Position numbers and translations under genes: made by a program
Shown here: positions 4,208 to 49,437 of the stretch, piece after piece
Position numbering within the stretch: position 1 is the first letter of the stretch
How the letters are laid out: every line of letters begins with the position of its first letter
Notes under the pieces: generated by a model
The model's database searches: none
What the model saw: the letters and a program-made list of their open reading frames with translations, nothing else
Told to the model about the DNA's origin: nothing
Source of the DNA: Dehalococcoidia bacterium
GTDB lineage: Bacteria > Chloroflexota > Dehalococcoidia > Bin125
Length of the DNA: 64,000 nucleotides
Assembly (NCBI GenBank): GCA_965247775.1
Contig: OZ252031.1
Span: 1,621,496-1,685,495, forward strand
Direction: 5' to 3'

Positions 4208-5278
4208 GTGCTCATGAGGCTCAACCCGCTGGCCTGGATACTCGGCCGCTTGTCGCACGACATCGGCATTGATCTGGGGACCGCGAACACGCTGGTCACC
4301 GTCAAAGAGCGCGGCATCGTCATCGATGAGCCGTCGGTCGTGGCGATCGATCGCAACACGAAAACCGTCCTCGCGATCGGCGCGGAGGCGAAGCGCATGG
4401 TGGGCCGGACACCCGCCAACATCGTCGCTGTGCGGCCGCTCAAGGACGGCGTCATCTCCGACTTCGACGTGGCGGAGAAGATGCTGCAGTATTTCGTCCG
4501 CGCGGTCCATGATCGCTTCGGCTGGGGCCTGCCGCGACCGCGGGTGGTGGTGGGGATGCCCTCGGGGGTCACGGAGGTGGAGAAACGGGCGATCTACGAC
4601 GCGGTCACCAACGCCGGCGCGCGCGAAGCCTTCCTCGTCGAGGAGCCGCTGGCCGCTGCCATCGGCGCCGGCCTCCCGATCCTGGACGCGAGCGGCACGA
4701 TGATCGTGGACATCGGTGGAGGCACGACGGAGGTGGCGGTGCTGGCGCTGGGCGGGATCGTCGTCAGCACGTCGATCCGGATCGCCGGCGACGAGGTGGA
4801 CGCGGACATCATCAGCTACGCCCGCCAGGTCCACAACATGTTGATTGGCGACCGCTCGGCGGAGGAGATTAAGATCGAGGCGGGATCGGCCTTCCCTCTG
4901 GAGCGGGAGCGCCCGGTGGTGCTGCGCGGGCGGGATCTATCGACGGGGCTGCCCAAGCGTGTGGAGATCAGCAGTGTGGAATTGCGGGACGCGCTGAGCG
5001 CGTCGATCAGCGGCATCGCGGGCGCCGTGCGGCAAACGATCGAGATCACGCCCCCGGAGCTGGTGGCGGACCTGATGAATCAAGGCATCGCTCTGGCGGG
5101 GGGCGGCGCTCTGTTAGCCGGGATGGACCGGCGAATTTCGCAAGAGACGAAATTCCCGGTGTACGTGGCTGAGGATCCGCTGACCTGCGTGGTCCGCGGC
5201 TGCGCCGAGGTCCTGGAGGAGGCGGAGATGCTGATGAAAGTCCGCTCGCAGATGACAACCTGGCGCGGGCGCCGTTAG
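4208..5278 (+). CDS. mreB: Rod shape-determining protein MreB
   Basis: IGIDLGTANTLV actin-like phosphate-1 motif, DIGGGTTEVAV; GTG start, possibly ATG at 4214. Confidence 0.9.
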   Translation: MLMRLNPLAWILGRLSHDIGIDLGTANTLVTVKERGIVIDEPSVVAIDRNTKTVLAIGAEAKRMVGRTPANIVAVRPLKDGVISDFDVAEKMLQYFVRAVHDRFGWGLPRPRVVVGMPSGVTEVEKRAIYDAVTNAGAREAFLVEEPLAAAIGAGLPILDASGTMIVDIGGGTTEVAVLALGGIVVSTSIRIAGDEVDADIISYARQVHNMLIGDRSAEEIKIEAGSAFPLERERPVVLRGRDLSTGLPKRVEISSVELRDALSASISGIAGAVRQTIEITPPELVADLMNQGIALAGGGALLAGMDRRISQETKFPVYVAEDPLTCVVRGCAEVLEEAEMLMKVRSQMTTWRGRR

Positions 5279-5281
5279 GGC

Positions 5282-6172
5282 GTGATGACGCTCCTGCAAT
5301 CCCGGCTAGGCCAGTGGCTACTGGGCATGGCGGCGCTCATCGTCTTACTCGCGACGCTGGCGGCGCTCGGCGTCGCGCAGCCCGTGGAGGAAGCGGCGTC
5401 GACCGTGTTCGGCCCCATTCAGCGCGGCCTGCGCCGAGCCGCGGAGCCTGTCGCGAACCTGGTGGAGAGCGTCGACGAGTTCGACACCGTCGATGATGAG
5501 AACCGGGCTCTCCGCAATCGCATCGAGCAACTGGAGGCGGAGACCGCCCGCCTGCGCGAGACGCAGATCCAATTCCGCGGGCGGGAGGCGCTGCTTGCGG
5601 TGCAAGAGGCCTCGGACGAGATCTTCCTGACGGCGGGCGTGATCACGCGCGACCTCACCGGCCTGCTGGACGTCATTGCCCTCGACCGGGGCAGCAACGA
5701 CGGCGTTGAAGAGGGCATGGCCGTGCTCGCCGCCGGTGGCAGCCTGGTAGGCACCATCATGGAGGTGCGCCCGGGGTCCTCCTTTGTCCGGCTGCTGACG
5801 GATCCCGGGGGCAGCGCGCGAACGTTGCACCAACTGAGCCGCTCCGAGGGCGTGGTCAGCGGCGATACGGGCGGCAACCTGCGGGTCGATTTCATCCCTC
5901 GCACCGCCGACGTGCAGCCAGGCCATCTGTTCGTGACATCGGGCCTAGGGGGGCTGCTGCCCAAGGGCATCCCGGTTGGCCGTGTCGTGTCGGCGGAGGG
6001 ATCGGCGCAAGAGGTCTTCATGCGGGTCCGGCTGGAACCACTGGCGCCGCTGGACGAACTCGAGCTGGTGCTGGTCCAGATCACCTTCCGCCCCGAACCG
6101 CTGCCCCCGCCGGGCAGCGAGGTCGCGGAGGACGGCGCGGAGACGCAGGCCGCGGAGACCGCGGCGCCATGA
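5282..6172 (+). CDS. mreC: Rod shape-determining protein MreC
   Basis: N-terminal TM, coiled coil (ENRALRNRIEQLEAETARL), C-terminal beta domain; sits directly after mreB. Confidence 0.7.
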   Translation: MMTLLQSRLGQWLLGMAALIVLLATLAALGVAQPVEEAASTVFGPIQRGLRRAAEPVANLVESVDEFDTVDDENRALRNRIEQLEAETARLRETQIQFRGREALLAVQEASDEIFLTAGVITRDLTGLLDVIALDRGSNDGVEEGMAVLAAGGSLVGTIMEVRPGSSFVRLLTDPGGSARTLHQLSRSEGVVSGDTGGNLRVDFIPRTADVQPGHLFVTSGLGGLLPKGIPVGRVVSAEGSAQEVFMRVRLEPLAPLDELELVLVQITFRPEPLPPPGSEVAEDGAETQAAETAAP

Positions 6173-12847: not shown

Positions 12848-14203
12848 TCAGTCGGCGCTGTCGGCTCGGAGATCCTGCTCCGAGAGGCCGGCTTTTTGCA
12901 GCGCCGCCTCCATGGCGGTGGCGGGGGCCGGCGGGGAAGGGGCGGCGGCGGGCGCATCCGCGGGGGACGCGTCCGGCGCGGCGGCGGCCAAATCCTCCGT
13001 GGCGGGAGGGGGCTCGCCCTGGGTGACCCCGAAGCGCGCCGCCACGTCGGCGGGGAGCATCTGGATACCACCCTCGTCGTTGAAGACCCAGCCGGACTGC
13101 TCGGCCTCGGGGCGGGCCTGGCGCAAGCTGAGGCCGAGACGATGCCGGTCCCGCTCAATCCGCACGATCTTGACCGGAACGACATCCCCTTCGGCGACGA
13201 CTTCGCGCGGGTGGGAGATCCGCCGGTCCACGAGTTCGGAGACGTGGATGAGCCCTTCCACGGGGCCGTCGATGCGGGCGAAGGCGCCGAAGGTGACCAG
13301 CTTCGTGACGACGCTGGCCACCACCTGATTGACGCCGTACTGCCCAACCACGTCGTCCCATTCCTCGGGGCGCGCGCGGCGGATGGAGAGGCCGATCTTC
13401 TTGCTCTCGTGGTCCACCTTCATGACGTAGACGTCTACCGGCTCCCCGATCTTGAAGAGCGCTTCGGGGTCGATATCGCGGTCCCAGGAGAGTTCGGAGA
13501 GGTGGACCAAGCCATCGGCGCCACCGAGGTCCACGAAGACGCCGAAGCTGCGGATGCTCGTGACCTTGCCCTTGCGGATCTCGCCTTCGTGCAGCTCCGT
13601 CAGCAGCCGGTCCTTCTGCTCCGCACGCCATTCCTGCATGGCGGCGCGTTCGGAGAGGATGACGCGGTTGCGGCGCCGGTTGATCTCAATCACCTTGAGC
13701 CGCAAGGTGCGCCCGACGAACTCGGCCAGCCCGCCGCCGTTCTCGCGGTCGGGGGCGGCGCCCACCACCTGGCTCAAGGGCACGAAGGCGTTCACTCCTT
13801 CTACGTTGACCAGGAGGCCGCCCTTGTTGAAGCCGGTCACGCCGGCCTCGAAGATCTCGCCGCTTTCGTGCCGGTTCTGCAGCTCCCGCCAGCCTTGCTC
13901 GCCGCGGGCGCGGTCTACCGAGAGGAGCAGTTGATCCTCTTCGACTTCGGGCTGGAGCACGTAGACCAGGACGGAGTCGCCCGCCCCCAGGGCGCCGCGC
14001 TGCTCGGGCGAGAGGGAATGCATCTCACTGGGGGCGACGATGCCCTCGGCTTTGGCGCGCACGTCCACGATGAGGCTATCGCCGGCACGGCCGACGACGG
14101 TCCCTTCGACGACGTCGCCGCGCTGGAGTTGCTCGAAGACTGGGCCTTCGGCTTCCAGGAGTTCGGCCATGCTGGGGGTGGAGGGGGGGGGGTTCTGGGC
14201 CAA
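12848..14203 (-). CDS. rpsA: 30S ribosomal protein S1 (four S1 domains)
   Basis: Repeated S1 OB-fold units (GxV.GxV.....GAFV.L....GL.H.SE), Ala/Pro-rich C-terminal tail. Confidence 0.85.
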   Translation of the reverse strand: MAQNPPPSTPSMAELLEAEGPVFEQLQRGDVVEGTVVGRAGDSLIVDVRAKAEGIVAPSEMHSLSPEQRGALGAGDSVLVYVLQPEVEEDQLLLSVDRARGEQGWRELQNRHESGEIFEAGVTGFNKGGLLVNVEGVNAFVPLSQVVGAAPDRENGGGLAEFVGRTLRLKVIEINRRRNRVILSERAAMQEWRAEQKDRLLTELHEGEIRKGKVTSIRSFGVFVDLGGADGLVHLSELSWDRDIDPEALFKIGEPVDVYVMKVDHESKKIGLSIRRARPEEWDDVVGQYGVNQVVASVVTKLVTFGAFARIDGPVEGLIHVSELVDRRISHPREVVAEGDVVPVKIVRIERDRHRLGLSLRQARPEAEQSGWVFNDEGGIQMLPADVAARFGVTQGEPPPATEDLAAAAPDASPADAPAAAPSPPAPATAMEAALQKAGLSEQDLRADSAD

Positions 14204-14289
14204 GTGCAGTGGGTGGGGCGCGCGGGGGCCCCGCTTCCTTTCGCGGAGGGGCCCATGGTACCGACGCGCGGGCGGCGGGGCAACCGGGG

Positions 14290-14312
14290 GGGGATTATAA
14301 GCCTAACTTGAC
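14290..14312. repeat. Left terminal inverted repeat of the IS1595-like unit
   Basis: Exact reverse complement of 17249..17271; preceded by AACCGGGG. Confidence 0.7.
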
Positions 14313-14342
14313 AGACGGGCGGGATTCCGGTATCGTCAGGGC

Positions 14343-15326
14343 ATGGTGACGAGTGCTCCCGGCAAAGCGCACCGCACGGGAATCTCCCTCATGGAGCTGT
14401 TCGCGTTGTTCCCCGACGAGGCCGCGGCGACGGGCTGGTTTGAGTCCCTCGTGTGGCCCGAGGTGCGCGGCTGCGGCCATTGCGGCAGCGTCAAAACGCG
14501 CGAGGTGCCGAACGCCAAGCCGATGCCCTACTGGTGCTCGGACTGCCGCTCCTACTTCAGCGTCCGCACGGGAACGGCGCTCTCCCACTCCAAGGTTCCC
14601 CTCCGCAAATGGGCCGTCGCCATCTACCTCGAAATGACCTCCCTCAAGGGCGTGTCGAGCATGAAGCTCCACCGGGACATTGCCGTGAGCCAGCCAGCGG
14701 CCTGGTTCATGCTCCACCGCATCCGCGAGGCGTGGGCCGGCCCAGACGGCGGCAAGCTGGCCGGACCCGTGGAAGTTGATGAGGCATATATGGGCGGGGT
14801 CGAGCGCAACAAGCACGAGCACGAGCGCCAGCGGGCGCACGCACGCGGCGGGCTCTCCGACAAGGCCCCCGTCATCGGCGTGAAGGATCGGGCAACCGGC
14901 ACGGTCCGCGCCCGCGCCATCCTGAGCACGGACGGCGAGACGCTCCGCGGGTTCGTGCGGGAGCACACGCAGCCGGGCGCCCAGGTCTACTCGGACGGGC
15001 ACGGCGCGTACACGCTGCTGGAGGGCGAGTACAAGCACAACGCGGTCCAGCACAGCGTCGGAACCTACGTCATCGGCCAGGCCCACACGAACGGGATCGA
15101 ATCATTTTGGGGAACGCTGAAGCGCGCGCACAAGGGCGTCTACCACAAGATCTCGCCGAAGCATCTGGACCGCTACGTCCAGCAGTTCGCAGGGAAGCAC
15201 AACCTCCGCGACGCGGACACGCTAGCGCAGATGGCCGCGGTCGCTGCCGGTCTCGTCGGGCGACGGCTGCTCTACCGTGATCTCGTCGCGGCCAACGGGC
15301 TTCCGTCGGGGGCGCGGGGTGCGTAG
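14343..15326 (+). CDS. IS1595-family (ISXO2-like) DDE transposase with N-terminal zinc ribbon
   Basis: CGHCGS...CSDCRSYF zinc ribbon, then ISXO2-like DDE domain (VEVDEAYMGG, YSDGHGAY, NGIESFWGTLKR); possible later start at M17. Confidence 0.85.
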   Translation: MVTSAPGKAHRTGISLMELFALFPDEAAATGWFESLVWPEVRGCGHCGSVKTREVPNAKPMPYWCSDCRSYFSVRTGTALSHSKVPLRKWAVAIYLEMTSLKGVSSMKLHRDIAVSQPAAWFMLHRIREAWAGPDGGKLAGPVEVDEAYMGGVERNKHEHERQRAHARGGLSDKAPVIGVKDRATGTVRARAILSTDGETLRGFVREHTQPGAQVYSDGHGAYTLLEGEYKHNAVQHSVGTYVIGQAHTNGIESFWGTLKRAHKGVYHKISPKHLDRYVQQFAGKHNLRDADTLAQMAAVAAGLVGRRLLYRDLVAANGLPSGARGA

Positions 15327-15421
15327 GAGCGCCCGCGCCACATCCTCGGGTGTGGCCCCCTGGTAGCGCGGATTCAGCGGGGGCTCCTGTCTCTCGCCGG
15401 TCATGCTGTCCTTCCTCCCAA

Positions 15422-15694
15422 TTATGGCAGTCCCATCAGGTCTCGAGCGTGGCGGACAGCCCGATCAAGAGTGTTGCAGCACTTGCGGATCGCCGCTTCG
15501 TCGTCCAGCGTCAAGCTATGTTCCTCAGCGATCAGAACCTCAGCCCATTCTCGCACTTCACCATGTAGACGACCTGCTGGATCGTTTTTCGCAAACACTT
15601 GCGCAAGCGCAGTCACGAAGCCCACAAACGCCTCGGTCGTGAGAACGTCGCCCTGAGCAGGATCAGTAGGGTCGTAGGACTCCTTGGTCGCCAT
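15422..15694 (-). CDS. Hypothetical protein (90 aa), cargo of the IS1595-like unit
   Basis: Clean ORF with no family recognised; 14 nt downstream of the 64-aa ORF on the same strand. Confidence 0.35.
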   Translation of the reverse strand: MATKESYDPTDPAQGDVLTTEAFVGFVTALAQVFAKNDPAGRLHGEVREWAEVLIAEEHSLTLDDEAAIRKCCNTLDRAVRHARDLMGLP

Positions 15695-15708
15695 AACGCC
15701 ACTTGCGA

Positions 15709-15903
15709 CTAGGAGCCGTTGCGGTTGATGGCCTCCAGGAGTTCCGCTCGCAGATCATCCGTGGCGCTGTGGAGCCGCTGCTCCATGCCCGCCATGTCCG
15801 CTCGGATCTCCAGGCGGAGAGCGGCGATCTCCTGTCGTACATCGTTGATGCGGAGATGCGCGGCGACGGCGCTGGCATGGCTCTCGGGAGCGCTGGTGGT
15901 CAT
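15709..15903 (-). CDS. Hypothetical small coiled-coil protein (64 aa), cargo of the IS1595-like unit
   Basis: Heptad-like LRxE repeats; no family recognised. Confidence 0.35.
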   Translation of the reverse strand: MTTSAPESHASAVAAHLRINDVRQEIAALRLEIRADMAGMEQRLHSATDDLRAELLEAINRNGS

Positions 15904-16254
15904 GGTGGTCGCGTCTCCTTCGGCGGAGGGGTGACGTTCCCTAGGCGTCTAGCCTAGCGAATCCTCCCGTACTGTAAATCCTTCACCACCACGGGGGCAA
16001 CGCCCCTCGCGATCGCAGGTTCGACTCTGCCAGACCATGCGAGTAGAACGAGCGGAACTCGATGCTCCCTTGTGGCCCTACTTGCTGAACTGGTCTGGCA
16101 ACGAGTTCCGCTCGCTGCAAGGGAGCCCCTTGATGGCTACGACTGCCCCGAAGCTTCAAGACGCTCTCGCCGCTCTTGCTGCCGGCGCCGTGTTCATCGG
16201 CACCTTTCTCCCCTGCTCAGGGATGGGGGGGAAGTGGCTTCGGCATGACGGCTC

Positions 16255-17196
16255 CTAGCCTACCGCGTTGATCTCGGCCGTGAACGGGCCACCGCACCCA
16301 GAATCGTCGATGTAGAAGGGGCCAGACCCATCGTAGTCAGCAATCGAGAAACCCAGCGTATGGGTCCCTTTCGCTTCCAGCGTGCGAACCTCCGCGACAG
16401 GGGAGCCCTCCTCGTCGACAATCCAGAGGTAGCACCAGTCGCCGTCCGCATCTTGCAGGAAGAGGTCGGCACCCGTAGTCGTGGCAGTGTAGCGGCCCGG
16501 CTCGAGTGAGAATGACGTGTAGCTATCCGCGACGGACACGCCCGCGGTGGTAGTGGGCGCTGGCTCTGGTGCAGGTGTAACCGCCGGCTCAGGCTCAGGC
16601 TCCACCACGGCAGCCGGCGCAACTGGCACTGTCTCCTCATTATCCTCACAGGTGAACATCAGGCGGTCGAGCCGGAACTGCCTGAGGCCTTCCCAATCCA
16701 ACCAAACCTGGTCGTTACTCTTTCCAACGGCGCGGCCATCATGAGGGAATACCTTGACGCGAATAACCCCCTCGCTTGTCGGGGCTGTCAGGAAACGGAT
16801 GTAATCCCCGGCCTGGATCTGACCGGTTACTTGCGGGTTGCCAGAATAGATGACACCTGGCGCCTGGCCCCACTGCATGGACGATTCGGCGAGGAGCCGA
16901 TTGCAGACCACGAACTCCTGGTAAGACTCCTCGAAGGTGGGATCAGGCGCGGGTTCCGGTGCGACCGCAGGTTCCGGCTTCGGTGCGGCCGCTGGCACGG
17001 GCTTAGGCGCCCGCACAACCTCCCGCACTGTCTCCGGCTCTGCCGCTTTCGGCTCAGGCTCAACCCGAGGCGTCACGGCGGCGGCAACCTCGTTGGACTC
17101 CGAGTCCTCATCTCCCCCGCCGATGGCGACGAGCACGCCAATGACGAGCAAGCCGACCATGCCAATAATGAGCATCTTTCTAAATCTGGTCGTCAT
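16255..17196 (-). CDS. Membrane-anchored, extracytoplasmic two-domain protein with Pro/Ala/Glu-rich linkers, unknown function (cargo)
   Basis: N-terminal TM (MLIIGMVGLLVIGVLVAI), PEPKAAEPE linkers, two ~95-aa Cys-containing globular segments; lower GC than its surroundings. Confidence 0.55.
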   Translation of the reverse strand: MTTRFRKMLIIGMVGLLVIGVLVAIGGGDEDSESNEVAAAVTPRVEPEPKAAEPETVREVVRAPKPVPAAAPKPEPAVAPEPAPDPTFEESYQEFVVCNRLLAESSMQWGQAPGVIYSGNPQVTGQIQAGDYIRFLTAPTSEGVIRVKVFPHDGRAVGKSNDQVWLDWEGLRQFRLDRLMFTCEDNEETVPVAPAAVVEPEPEPAVTPAPEPAPTTTAGVSVADSYTSFSLEPGRYTATTTGADLFLQDADGDWCYLWIVDEEGSPVAEVRTLEAKGTHTLGFSIADYDGSGPFYIDDSGCGGPFTAEINAVG

Positions 17197-17248
17197 AGCA
17201 GGAACCCCCTCGCAAGCTGAGGGAACCTAGCAAGGAGGGTGGCCTGGC

Positions 17249-17271
17249 GTCAAGTTAGGCTTATAATCCCC
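17249..17271. repeat. Right terminal inverted repeat of the IS1595-like unit
   Basis: Exact reverse complement of 14290..14312; followed by AACCGGGG. Confidence 0.7.
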
Positions 17272-17311
17272 AACCGGGGCCGGTGGGGCCCGAGCGCTGG
17301 CGCCCGCCGGT

Positions 17312-17366
17312 ACGGGCCCCGCCCCCGCTGGGGCGGGCAAGGCAAACGCCCGTCCGAAGACGGGCG
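17312..17366 (-). terminator. Tandem GC-rich hairpins downstream of 5S rRNA (candidate rrn terminators)
   Basis: Minus-strand GCCCGTCttcgGACGGGC followed by GTTTGCCTT, then CCCGCCCCagcgGGGGCGGG. Confidence 0.5.
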
Positions 17367-17381: not shown

Positions 17382-17501
17382 GGCTGGCGATGGCCTATTT
17401 TCCGCAGGGGGTTGCCCCCCGAGTATCGTCAGCGCTGCGACGTTTCACTGCCGTGTTCGGGATGGGAACGGGTGGGGCCATCGCGCTCTAATCACCAGCA
17501 C
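17382..17501 (-). rRNA. rrf: 5S ribosomal RNA
   Basis: Minus-strand CCCGTTCCCATCCCGAACACGGCAGTGAAACG core matches the 5S loop B/C consensus; helix I closes GCUGGUGAU with AUCGCCAGC. Confidence 0.8.
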
Positions 17502-17531
17502 CGATGCTGCTGAGGGGTGGATCCGGCGGTC

Positions 17532-17607
17532 TGGTGGAGCCGAGGGGGGTCGAACCCCTGACCTCCGCCTTGCAAAGGCGGCGCTCTCCCAGCTGAGCTA
17601 CGGCCCC
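17532..17607 (-). tRNA. tRNA-Ala (anticodon TGC)
   Basis: Cloverleaf with G3:U70 and UGC anticodon; CCA encoded. Confidence 0.9.
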
Positions 17608-17622
17608 GGCGGGAGTGCAGGC

Positions 17623-17699
17623 TGGTGGGCCATCCTGGACTCGAACCAGGGACCTCAGTCTTATCAGGACTGCGCTCTAACCAGCTGAGCTAATGGCCC
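17623..17699 (-). tRNA. tRNA-Ile (anticodon GAT)
   Basis: Cloverleaf with CUGAUAA anticodon loop; typical rrn spacer tRNA. Confidence 0.9.
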
Positions 17700-17887
17700 G
17701 TGGCGTGGAGGCCGGATCGGTGGGCGACGCCGGGCCAGGCCGACGCCGCCTTAGCAGCTGGAGAGCGAAAGAGAACATGCTCCGGCGAGCGGACGGACGC
17801 CTGCGGGGCGCGTACCGGACGCGTTCCCCGCGAGCGATCGACCTGGAAGCCTGCCGACCCCACCGAGGGCCGGAGGGCACTCCCTAG

Positions 17888-19385
<1,498 letters not shown>

Positions 19386-28540: not shown

Positions 28541-28616
28541 GGCAGCGTAGCTCAGTTGGTAGAGCAGGGGACTCATAAGCCCTTGGTCGCAGGTTCGAGT
28601 CCTGCCGCTGCTACCA
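28541..28616 (+). tRNA. tRNA-Met (anticodon CAT; could be the lysidine-modified Ile2 species)
   Basis: Cloverleaf with CUCAUAA loop. Confidence 0.85.
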
Positions 28617-28631
28617 TCACGAGGCCGTTTG

Positions 28632-28708
28632 GGGCGATTAGCTCAGCTGGCTAGAGCGTCCGGTTCACATCCGGGAGGTCGCAGGTTCAAGTCCTGCATC
28701 GCCCACCA
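28632..28708 (+). tRNA. tRNA-Val (anticodon CAC)
   Basis: Cloverleaf with UUCACAU loop. Confidence 0.85.
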
Positions 28709-28720
28709 GCAGCGGTGCGC

Positions 28721-28807
28721 GCCGAAGTGGCGGAATTGGCAGACGCGCTACGTTCAGGGCGTAGTGTCCGCAAGGGCGTGGGAGTTCGAGTCTCCCCTTC
28801 GGCACCA
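28721..28807 (+). tRNA. tRNA-Leu (anticodon CAG)
   Basis: Class II tRNA with long variable arm, UUCAGGG loop. Confidence 0.85.
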
Positions 28808-28814
28808 AGCAGTC

Positions 28815-28891
28815 GCGCTCGTAGCTCAGTGGATTAGAGCGCTGCCCTGCGGAGGCAGAGGTCGTGGGTTCAAGTCCCGCCGAGCGCGCCA
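28815..28891 (+). tRNA. tRNA-Arg (anticodon reads GCG, not the usual ACG)
   Basis: Cloverleaf with anticodon stem CUGCC/GGCAG and loop CUGCGGA. Confidence 0.7.
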
Positions 28892-49023: not shown

Positions 49024-49100
49024 AGGAGTGTAGCTCAGTTTGGGAGAGCAGCGGTCTCCAAAACCGCAGGTCGGGGGTTCGAGTCCCTCCACTCCTGCCA
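49024..49100 (+). tRNA. tRNA-Trp (anticodon CCA)
   Basis: Cloverleaf with CUCCAAA loop. Confidence 0.9.
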
Positions 49101-49121
49101 GCGAGCGCTCCCAGGTCATGG

Positions 49122-49209
49122 GCCGAGGTGGTGGAACTGGTAGACACGCAGCGTTGAGGGCGCTGTGCCCGTTACGGGCGTAGGAGTTCGAGTCTCCTCC
49201 TCGGCACCA
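49122..49209 (+). tRNA. tRNA-Leu (anticodon GAG)
   Basis: Class II tRNA with long variable arm, UUGAGGG loop. Confidence 0.85.
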
Positions 49210-49260
49210 CCAGGGGGCAGCATCGCCGGTGAGCACGGGGCCGCGAGCGGAGTTGAACAA

Positions 49261-49335
49261 GCGGAAGTGGCGCAGCGGTAGCGCGTCTCCTTGCCAAGGA
49301 GAAGGTCGCGGGTTCAAATCCCGTCTTCCGCTCCA
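49261..49335 (+). tRNA. tRNA-Gly (anticodon GCC)
   Basis: Cloverleaf with UUGCCAA loop. Confidence 0.9.
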
Positions 49336-49363
49336 TCCCCCTCACCCCTTCCCTGCCCTCCGG

Positions 49364-49437
49364 GGCGACGTAGCCAAGTGGTAAGGCAAGGGTCTGCAAA
49401 ACCCCGATCACCGGTTCGAATCCGGTCGTCGCCTCCA
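49364..49437 (+). tRNA. tRNA-Cys (anticodon GCA)
   Basis: Cloverleaf with CUGCAAA loop; short D arm. Confidence 0.8.

What the first reader, a model, noticed from the sequence alone, without database searches (positions are those of the whole stretch)
16255..17196. Cargo gene: membrane-anchored extracytoplasmic two-domain protein with Pro/Glu-rich linkers and no recognisable family
The 313-aa product has a single N-terminal TM helix and a PEPKAAEPE-type linker. Two ~95-aa globular segments follow, each with two Cys, separated by a second Pro/Glu/Ala linker. This looks like a surface-displayed binding or enzymatic module delivered by a transposon. I cannot place it in a known family. The two small co-directional ORFs next to it (64 aa coiled-coil and 90 aa) are also unassignable.
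Basis: partly seen in the sequence, partly recalled or inferred. Interest (0 to 1): 0.5.

Follow-up and report, generated by a model that had tools for sequence, protein, structure and literature searches.

The report
Surface-protein cargo on an IS1595 transposon
The gene is real and is cargo of a complete 3-kb IS1595-family mobile element; it encodes a membrane-tethered, probably non-enzymatic surface protein made of an SH3-like domain and a small beta-sandwich domain from a rare family outside the libraries searched, so it is a tidy but not surprising example of a "transporter" insertion sequence.

Summary
The 313-aa ORF at 16255..17196 (-) is confirmed. It has an N-terminal TM helix, two Pro/Glu/Ala linkers and two ~95-aa globular domains, each with a Cys pair.

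It lies inside a 2,982-bp element (14290..17271). The element has perfect 23-bp terminal inverted repeats and an 8-bp target duplication (AACCGGGG), and it encodes an IS1595 transposase.

A sister element in other Chloroflexi MAGs (78% nt identity) shares IRL, transposase and the 90-aa ORF. In place of orf64 and the 313-aa gene it carries a DNA methylase-HNH gene. So the 313-aa gene sits in a swappable cargo slot, and the 90-aa ORF belongs to the backbone.

Domain B is rarer still, about 6 clusters (the window protein's cluster is not itself listed), and looks weakly like a CBM beta-sandwich.

dN/dS of 0.15-0.28 shows purifying selection. The most likely role is a non-catalytic, envelope-tethered binding protein. 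Its ligand and its benefit to the host are unknown.

The parts
14282..14289 (.). Left copy of the 8-bp target-site duplication AACCGGGG
   Evidence: Read directly. It is identical to 17272-17279, and 8 bp is the duplication length typical of the IS1595 family (my own knowledge).
14290..14312 (+). Left terminal inverted repeat (IRL), GGGGATTATAAGCCTAACTTGAC. Its inner TTGAC(A) is the -35 of a promoter-like site that faces the transposase gene.
   Evidence: pair I1. One search finds only two matches in 64 kb against 0 expected. One search reports the promoter-like site at 14308-14336.
14343..15326 (+). IS1595-family DDE transposase, 327 aa, with an N-terminal CxxC...CxxC zinc ribbon
   Evidence: Pfam PF12762 at E=2e-39 and NCBIfam transpos_IS1595 at E=1.6e-51. 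It is 78% identical to the transposase of the sister element in L017-L021.
15422..15694 (-). orf90, a helical 90-aa protein of unknown function that is conserved as part of the IS backbone
   Evidence: Its one homologue is P0092 (74% identity, Chloroflexi MAGs). P0092 lies in the same tail-to-tail position next to the sister transposase. dN/dS is 0.25. Backbone homology runs over 14290-15678 at 77.8% nt.
15709..15903 (-). orf64, a predicted coiled-coil 64-aa orphan. It is the first gene of the variable cargo slot and ends 14 nt upstream of the orf90 start.
   Evidence: It is present in the protein collection as a predicted protein but forms a singleton cluster. It has no tblastn hit in any fetched locus. 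GC3 is 0.82.
15904..16254 (.). 350-nt non-coding spacer inside the cargo slot, with a 17-nt-stem hairpin at 16049-16065 / 16098-16114
   Evidence: pair I6, and repeats D13 and I22. It shows no homology to any fetched locus.
16255..17196 (-). Cargo gene, 313 aa. TM anchor is aa 8-25 (nt 17122-17175). Linker 1 is aa 26-87 (16936-17121). Domain A, SH3b-like, is aa 88-185 (16642-16935). Linker 2 is aa 186-219 (16540-16641). Domain B, a beta-sandwich, is aa 220-313 (16258-16539).
17249..17271 (-). Right terminal inverted repeat (IRR), a perfect complement of IRL, 52 nt upstream of the cargo gene's ATG
17272..17279 (.). Right copy of the target-site duplication AACCGGGG. The insertion lies about 100 nt downstream of the 5S rRNA gene and its terminator-like hairpin (17347-17362).

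Best explanation
The 313-aa gene is a passenger in the variable cargo slot of a complete IS1595-family "transporter IS" (14290..17271). The element inserted just downstream of an rRNA operon in a high-GC genome. Every relative found comes from Chloroflexota MAGs, so the host is probably a Chloroflexota bacterium.

SHOWN:
- Perfect inverted repeats, an 8-bp target duplication and an IS1595 transposase.
- A sister element with the same backbone (IRL, transposase, orf90), its own 8-bp duplication and a different cargo (DNA methylase-HNH).
- Purifying selection on the cargo gene.
- Domain A genes also ride a second, distantly related IS1595 lineage. That lineage is present in two 99.75%-identical 4-kb copies in one genome.

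INFERRED:
- The product is inserted in the membrane with its N terminus in the cytoplasm. Two flexible Pro/Glu/Ala spacers hold two small disulfide-stapled domains outside the cell.
- Domain A is an SH3b-like barrel. SH3b is the fold used by peptidoglycan hydrolases to dock on the cell wall.
- Domain B is a small CBM-like beta-sandwich.
- Neither domain resembles a catalytic domain. The protein most likely works as a non-enzymatic, bivalent binder of an envelope or extracellular polymer (peptidoglycan, S-layer glycan or polysaccharide).
- By changing the cell surface it would give the host enough benefit for the element to keep it.
- Expression may rely on read-through from the rRNA operon, which is co-directional. 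No convincing promoter was found between the IRR and the ATG.
For: Element:
- Inverted repeats and target duplication. Transposase family.
- Sister element L017 4723-7392 has the same IR type and the duplication GGCACGTT.
- Backbone homology stops at window position 15678 and resumes only at the IRR.
- GC3 of the cargo is 0.71, against 0.88 for the transposase and the host genes.

Recurrence with IS1595:
- L003 has IRs bracketing the transposase and a domain A gene.
- L011 and L012 are 4.0-kb copies, 99.75% identical, at two sites.
- L008 has a transposase 50-60% identical to the window's, directly upstream of a domain A gene.
- Solo window-type IRs lie next to the domain B homologues in L002 and L004.

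Protein:
- TM helix and linkers.
- Relatives are anchored by a TM helix or, as I read them, by lipobox-like motifs.
- Elsewhere domain A is fused to LysM, SH3_3, LRR, Trypsin_2 and PQQ-propeller domains. This is the behaviour of an extracytoplasmic targeting or binding module.
- The Cys98/Cys183 pair is nearly invariant across the family.
- dN/dS is 0.15-0.28.
Against: - Domain B is modelled with only moderate confidence (pLDDT 57-88). No Foldseek hit reaches E<1e-3.
- Domain A has an unusually dense set of invariant polar residues (WGQAPG, PHDGR, DQVW). That could mark a catalytic or metal site rather than a binding groove.
- No ligand, phenotype or expression data exist.
- No clear promoter was found for the cargo gene.
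- The orientation of the domain A gene relative to the IRR differs between the element lineages.
- About half of the homologous loci have no IS1595 transposase within 6-8 kb.
Confidence: 0.6

Rival explanations
1. Mobile surface-exclusion or anti-phage factor. The tethered SH3b-like/CBM-like protein would mask or remodel a cell-surface receptor, as prophage-encoded exclusion lipoproteins do. It would then be functionally equivalent to the methylase-HNH cargo that occupies the same slot in the sister element.
For: - The same backbone carries either this gene or an RM-like methylase-HNH gene.
- The second IS1595 lineage carries both together.
- Other homologues sit among defence, toxin-antitoxin and mobilome genes: TIR, HepT/MNT, GmrSD, Mrr, REase-ARP and PIN.
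Against: - No PADLOC or PHROG match.
- No homologue in IMG/VR.
- The argument is guilt by association only. Accessory islands hold many non-defence genes.
- No phage data exist.
Confidence: 0.15
2. Small secreted enzyme. The invariant His-Asp-Arg (PHDGR) and WGQAPG motifs of domain A would form a catalytic or metal centre, for example a wall-modifying activity, with domain B as its substrate-binding module.
For: - Polar residues are invariant at unusually high density.
- Domain A pairs with recognised binding modules (LysM, SH3_3) in other proteins, as catalytic domains often do.
Against: - It also occurs fused to a true catalytic domain (Trypsin_2) and as the only globular domain of about 150-aa lipoproteins.
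- The ~95-aa SH3-like barrel has no structural match to an enzyme active site.
- No enzyme family matches by sequence.
Confidence: 0.1
3. Hitch-hiking DNA without function. The gene was captured by accident and is decaying or neutral.
For: - orf64 is an orphan.
- The cargo slot contains a 350-nt non-coding gap and has heterogeneous GC3.
- P0004 is N-terminally truncated.
- The L008 transposase is split over two frames.
Against: - The ORF is intact.
- dN/dS is 0.15-0.28 in three independent gene pairs.
- Domain A is retained while the middle passengers are swapped between L003 and L011.
- The Cys pairs are conserved.
Confidence: 0.08
4. A host gene that merely lies next to an insertion sequence, not cargo.
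For: None beyond the generic frequency of IS insertions next to accessory genes.
Against: - Both IRs and both duplication copies lie outside the gene, so it is inside the element.
- The sister element shows the same slot filled by another gene.
- The cargo's GC3 differs from the host's.
Confidence: 0.03

Closest known systems
Transporter insertion sequences (tIS) of the IS1595 family (Siguier, Gagnevin & Chandler 2009, as cited in PMC3129680)
   Same: A single DDE IS1595-type transposase, short terminal IRs, an 8-bp duplication, and passenger genes unrelated to transposition held between the IRs.
   Different: This particular Chloroflexota lineage is not something I could match to a named IS, because ISfinder was not available. 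The conserved 90-aa backbone ORF is likewise unmatched. So is the cargo pool that two lineages share (SH3b-like surface protein, methylase-HNH) despite transposases only 30% identical.
Bacterial SH3 (SH3b) cell-wall-binding domains of peptidoglycan hydrolases (AvPCP 2evr, lysostaphin 4lxc/6rk4, phage endolysins)
   Different: There is no sequence-profile match to any Pfam SH3 family. It has an extra N-terminal helix and C-terminal helices stapled by a conserved Cys pair, and its own invariant motifs (WGQAPG, PHDGR, DQVW). In the window protein it is not attached to any hydrolase.
Small beta-sandwich carbohydrate-binding modules (CBM4, CBM6, CBM29, CBM36)
   Same: Domain B is a beta-sandwich of about 95 aa whose best structural matches are CBMs.
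Integron cassette protein VCH_CASS4 (3g1j)
   Different: It rides a different mobile platform (an integron) and has no TM anchor or second domain. The similarity is fold-level only.

Membership tests
IS1595-family insertion sequence / transporter IS | DDE transposase that matches the IS1595 (ISXO2-like) catalytic domain | tested here: met
   PF12762 at E=2.2e-39, 135 bits against a cutoff of 27. NF033547 at 175 bits against a cutoff of 75.
IS1595-family insertion sequence / transporter IS | N-terminal zinc-ribbon of the transposase | tested here: inconclusive
   PF12760 scores 18.8 bits, below its cutoff of 25.4. The CxxC...CxxC motif is visible in the sequence.
IS1595-family insertion sequence / transporter IS | Terminal inverted repeats that bracket the element | tested here: met
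   Perfect 23-bp IRs at 14290-14312 and 17249-17271. The window holds 2 matches against 0.00 expected.
IS1595-family insertion sequence / transporter IS | 8-bp direct target-site duplication | tested here: met
   AACCGGGG on both sides. The sister element has GGCACGTT.
IS1595-family insertion sequence / transporter IS | Passenger genes inside the IRs, and evidence that the unit moves | tested here: met
   Three non-transposase ORFs lie inside the IRs. The related backbone sits at a different site with a different cargo. In the second lineage, two 99.75%-identical 4-kb copies that include passengers lie at two loci. Mobility of this exact copy was not tested.
Bacterial SH3 (SH3b) domain | Match to a Pfam SH3 profile (SH3_3, SH3_4 and others) | tested here: not met
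   No SH3 family appears even at E<=1. The SH3_3 hits in P0020, P0027 and P0052 lie outside their domain A regions.
Bacterial SH3 (SH3b) domain | SH3-like beta-barrel fold | tested here: met
Bacterial SH3 (SH3b) domain | Binding of peptidoglycan or a cell-wall ligand | not testable with these tools
   This needs binding assays.
Carbohydrate-binding module (beta-sandwich CBM) | Sequence or structural match to a CBM family | tested here: inconclusive
Known anti-phage defence protein | Match to a PADLOC model | tested here: not met
   The 313-aa, 64-aa and 90-aa products match 0 families.

The most novel reading that the evidence does not exclude
Chloroflexota IS1595 elements act as a modular shuttle with a small shared cargo pool. 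The domain A surface protein would be a new type of mobile envelope-modifying or phage-exclusion factor, interchangeable with an RM-like methylase-HNH module in the same slot. This would make it a defence function delivered by a single-transposase insertion sequence.
Probability: 0.12. Interest if true: 0.6.

Novelty: new member of a known kind. Interest (0 to 1): 0.35.

Why it matters
The locus is a clean, fully delimited example of an insertion sequence that carries passenger genes. It is also a natural cargo-swap experiment: one backbone holds either a surface protein or a methylase-HNH gene.

It defines a rare extracytoplasmic domain family that is absent from Pfam, NCBIfam, PHROGs and PADLOC. 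The family has 78 clusters among 1.84 billion representatives, and every locus with a named organism is Chloroflexota. Its repeated linkage to two diverged IS1595 lineages suggests that the cargo is selected rather than accidental.

The practical value is modest. It improves annotation of Chloroflexota mobile elements, and it offers a candidate envelope-binding module for a phylum whose cell surface is poorly understood. It does not open a new class of system.

Tried and rejected
- Family libraries. Pfam, NCBIfam, PHROGs and PADLOC on all three cargo ORFs gave only linker or coiled-coil noise below the cutoffs.
- Solved structures by sequence. Profiles of domains A and B against PDB sequences found nothing below E=0.09.
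- Duplication hypothesis. hhalign of domain A against domain B gave probability 0.4%, so the two domains are not a duplication. The apparent MAFFT overlap of the first B copy of P0003 with domain A is a misalignment.
- Foldseek against AFDB50. The library was not installed.
- Public collections. Two JGI metagenome scans and one IMG/VR scan found no relatives. An IR pattern scan of IMG/VR found none. tblastn against PLSDB plasmids found none.
- Exact look-ups. The cargo protein and ClpC could not be found in the contig index, so no same-species "empty site" could be retrieved.
- L008 ends. A search for IRs around the L008 element found none that were convincing, so its ends remain undefined.
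- L003 duplication. No target duplication is evident for the L003 element.
- Cargo promoter. No promoter was found for the cargo gene; the only good sigma-70-like site faces the transposase.
- NCBIfam BamI hit. The weak hit (E=0.019, 14.8 bits against a cutoff of 180) was rejected as a signal-peptide or linker artefact.

Full report
**Observation**

The ORF at 16255..17196 on the minus strand encodes 313 aa. Direct reading of the sequence shows:
- a basic N terminus (R4, R6, K7) followed by 18 hydrophobic residues (8-25). AlphaFold predicts a helix at 4-25;
- a 62-residue linker rich in P, A and E (26-87);
- a globular segment with Cys98 and Cys183 (about 88-185);
- a second P/A/E linker (186-219);
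- a second globular segment with Cys255 and Cys301 (about 220-313).

High-GC DNA produces many spurious long ORFs, and one search lists dozens of overlapping ones. This ORF is nevertheless coding, because it has homologues and dN/dS against the closest homologous gene is 0.26 overall, 0.15 for domain A and 0.28 for domain B.

**Mobile-element context**

Perfect 23-bp inverted repeats, GGGGATTATAAGCCTAACTTGAC, lie at 14290-14312 and 17249-17271 (pair I1). These are the only two matches in the 64-kb window, against 0.00 expected. Immediately outside them the octamer AACCGGGG is directly repeated at 14282-14289 and 17272-17279.

The 2,982-bp element contains:
- an IS1595-family transposase at 14343..15326 (+). 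PF12762 matches at E=2e-39 and NF033547 at 175 bits;
- on the other strand, orf90 (15422..15694), orf64 (15709..15903), a 350-nt spacer, and the 313-aa gene.

IS1595 elements that carry passenger genes are an established category, the "transporter IS" (Siguier et al. 2009, as cited in PMC3129680).

The insertion lies about 100 nt downstream of a 5S rRNA gene and its terminator-like hairpin. The cargo gene points the same way as the rRNA operon.

GC3 is 0.88-0.90 in the flanking host genes and 0.88 in the transposase. It is 0.71 in the cargo gene and 0.58 in orf90. The element is therefore compositionally mosaic.

**Cargo-slot evidence**

orf90 has a single homologue, P0092 (74% identity, Chloroflexi MAGs). 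On contigs from several samples, P0092 lies tail-to-tail with a 327-aa IS1595 transposase that is 78% identical to the window's, and directly after an N6/N4 methylase-HNH gene.

That element (L017 4723-7392, 2,670 bp) has the same type of IR and its own 8-bp duplication, GGCACGTT. At the nucleotide level, window 14290-15678 aligns to it at 77.8%. Homology then resumes only at the IRR.

The backbone is therefore IRL, transposase and orf90. The stretch 15679-17248 (orf64, spacer and the 313-aa gene) is a replaceable cargo module. orf64 is a singleton in the protein collection and has no hit in any fetched locus.

**The protein family**

A word-indexed search of 5.8 billion proteins found 9 relatives, and 16 with a profile. 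An exhaustive HMMER scan of 1.84 billion representatives found only 78.

The two domains are independent modules:
- Domain A occurs alone behind a TM helix or a lipobox-like motif.
- Domain A also occurs fused to SH3_3, LysM, LRR, Trypsin_2, PQQ-propeller, tRNA_anti-like or DUF4352-like regions.
- Domain B occurs in about six clusters. It is duplicated in P0003 and stands alone in P0032.
- Domains A and B are unrelated to each other (hhalign probability 0.4%).

All genome hits with an organism name are Chloroflexota or Dehalococcoidia MAGs.

**Linkage of domain A to IS1595**

- In Chloroflexota MAG OZ253587.1, a 3.0-kb element with 41-nt IRs holds an IS1595 transposase, two small ORFs and a domain A gene (L003).
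- The same genome has two further 4.0-kb copies, 99.75% identical, at other sites (L011, L012). These hold the transposase, a methylase-HNH gene, a 117-aa membrane protein and a domain A gene.
- That transposase is only 30% identical to the window's. The methylase-HNH genes of the two lineages are 48% identical. The domain A regions are 43-54% identical.
- L008 carries a transposase 50-60% identical to the window's, directly upstream of a domain A gene.
- L002 and L004, which hold the domain B homologues P0003 and P0004, each carry a solo window-type IR with two mismatches.
- The remaining loci lack IS1595 within the fetched flanks. They sit among integrases, other IS families, toxin-antitoxin genes and defence genes.

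**Structure**

The full-length AF2 model has mean pLDDT 73.5. Domain A scores 84-94 and domain B 57-88. A domain A-only model reaches pLDDT 89.5 and pTM 0.81.

These are fold-level resemblances. Sequence-profile membership in SH3 or CBM families fails.

**Mechanism**

Shown: the gene is an intact, selected passenger of a complete IS1595 transporter IS.

Inferred: the protein is a type II (N-in) membrane protein. Its extended Pro/Glu/Ala spacers project two disulfide-stapled, non-catalytic binding-type domains into the envelope, where they bind a wall, S-layer or polysaccharide ligand.

The benefit to the host is unknown. One possibility is surface exclusion or defence. The same slot holds an RM-like module in the sister element, and homologues live in defence-rich islands. 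However, no defence model matches, so I put this reading at 0.15 as a rival explanation. The fuller novel reading, which adds the shared-cargo-shuttle model, I put at 0.12.

An enzymatic role for the highly conserved PHDGR and WGQAPG motifs cannot be excluded; I put it at about 0.1.

**Verdict**

It is a new member of a known kind: an IS1595 transporter IS whose passenger belongs to an uncharacterised SH3b-like/beta-sandwich surface-protein family. Interest is moderate to low (0.35).

Noticed in passing
window 17382-19385 (-): The rRNA operon directly upstream of the element runs 16S, tRNA-Ile(GAT), tRNA-Ala(TGC), 5S with no 23S gene. Only 32 nt separate tRNA-Ala from 5S, and no 23S gene is found anywhere in the 64-kb window. 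Unlinked rRNA genes are known in Chloroflexota (my own knowledge), but a 5S that stays with the 16S-tRNA block is unusual. An assembly artefact is not excluded.
   Followed up: partly
L011 2699-6683 and L012 2699-6683 (OZ253587.1): Two 99.75%-identical 4.0-kb IS1595-family elements. Each carries a fused N6/N4 DNA methylase-HNH endonuclease, a 117-aa membrane protein and a domain A gene. A 3.0-kb variant (L003) keeps the transposase and the domain A gene but has two different small ORFs in the middle.
   Followed up: yes
L017 4776-6101 / 4952-6004; L018 4979-6004: The methylase-HNH cargo of the sister element is split over two overlapping frames in L017. It is annotated at 242 aa in some assemblies and 341 aa in others. 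This may be a frameshifted pseudogene or a sequencing error.
   Followed up: no
L008 4283-5255: The IS1595 transposase next to the domain A gene P0010 is split over two overlapping frames. The source's gene calls placed no IS1595 transposase there (its two calls are on the opposite strand, with no Pfam hit). No terminal IRs could be found, so it is probably a decayed copy.
   Followed up: partly
window 15739-15751, 16049-16060, 16103-16115: A 12-13-nt motif, GAGTTCCGCTCG(C), occurs three times in the cargo slot. One copy lies inside orf64. The other two form the arms of the spacer hairpin. Its significance is unknown.
   Followed up: no
L005 and L007 (same 570-kb contig), L006: The domain A lipoprotein gene P0014 occurs twice on one contig. 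It sits within a repeated block that also holds a DUF4349 gene, a trypsin-like protease and several IS3-family transposases. This suggests a larger duplicated or mobile segment.
   Followed up: no
window 28541-28888 and 49024-49434: Two clusters of 5-6 tRNA genes each lie on the plus strand.
   Followed up: no
window 14203-14290: The element is inserted only about 80 bp upstream of the longest predicted start of the ribosomal protein S1 gene (12848..14203, -). It may therefore separate S1/ClpC from their native upstream region.
   Followed up: no
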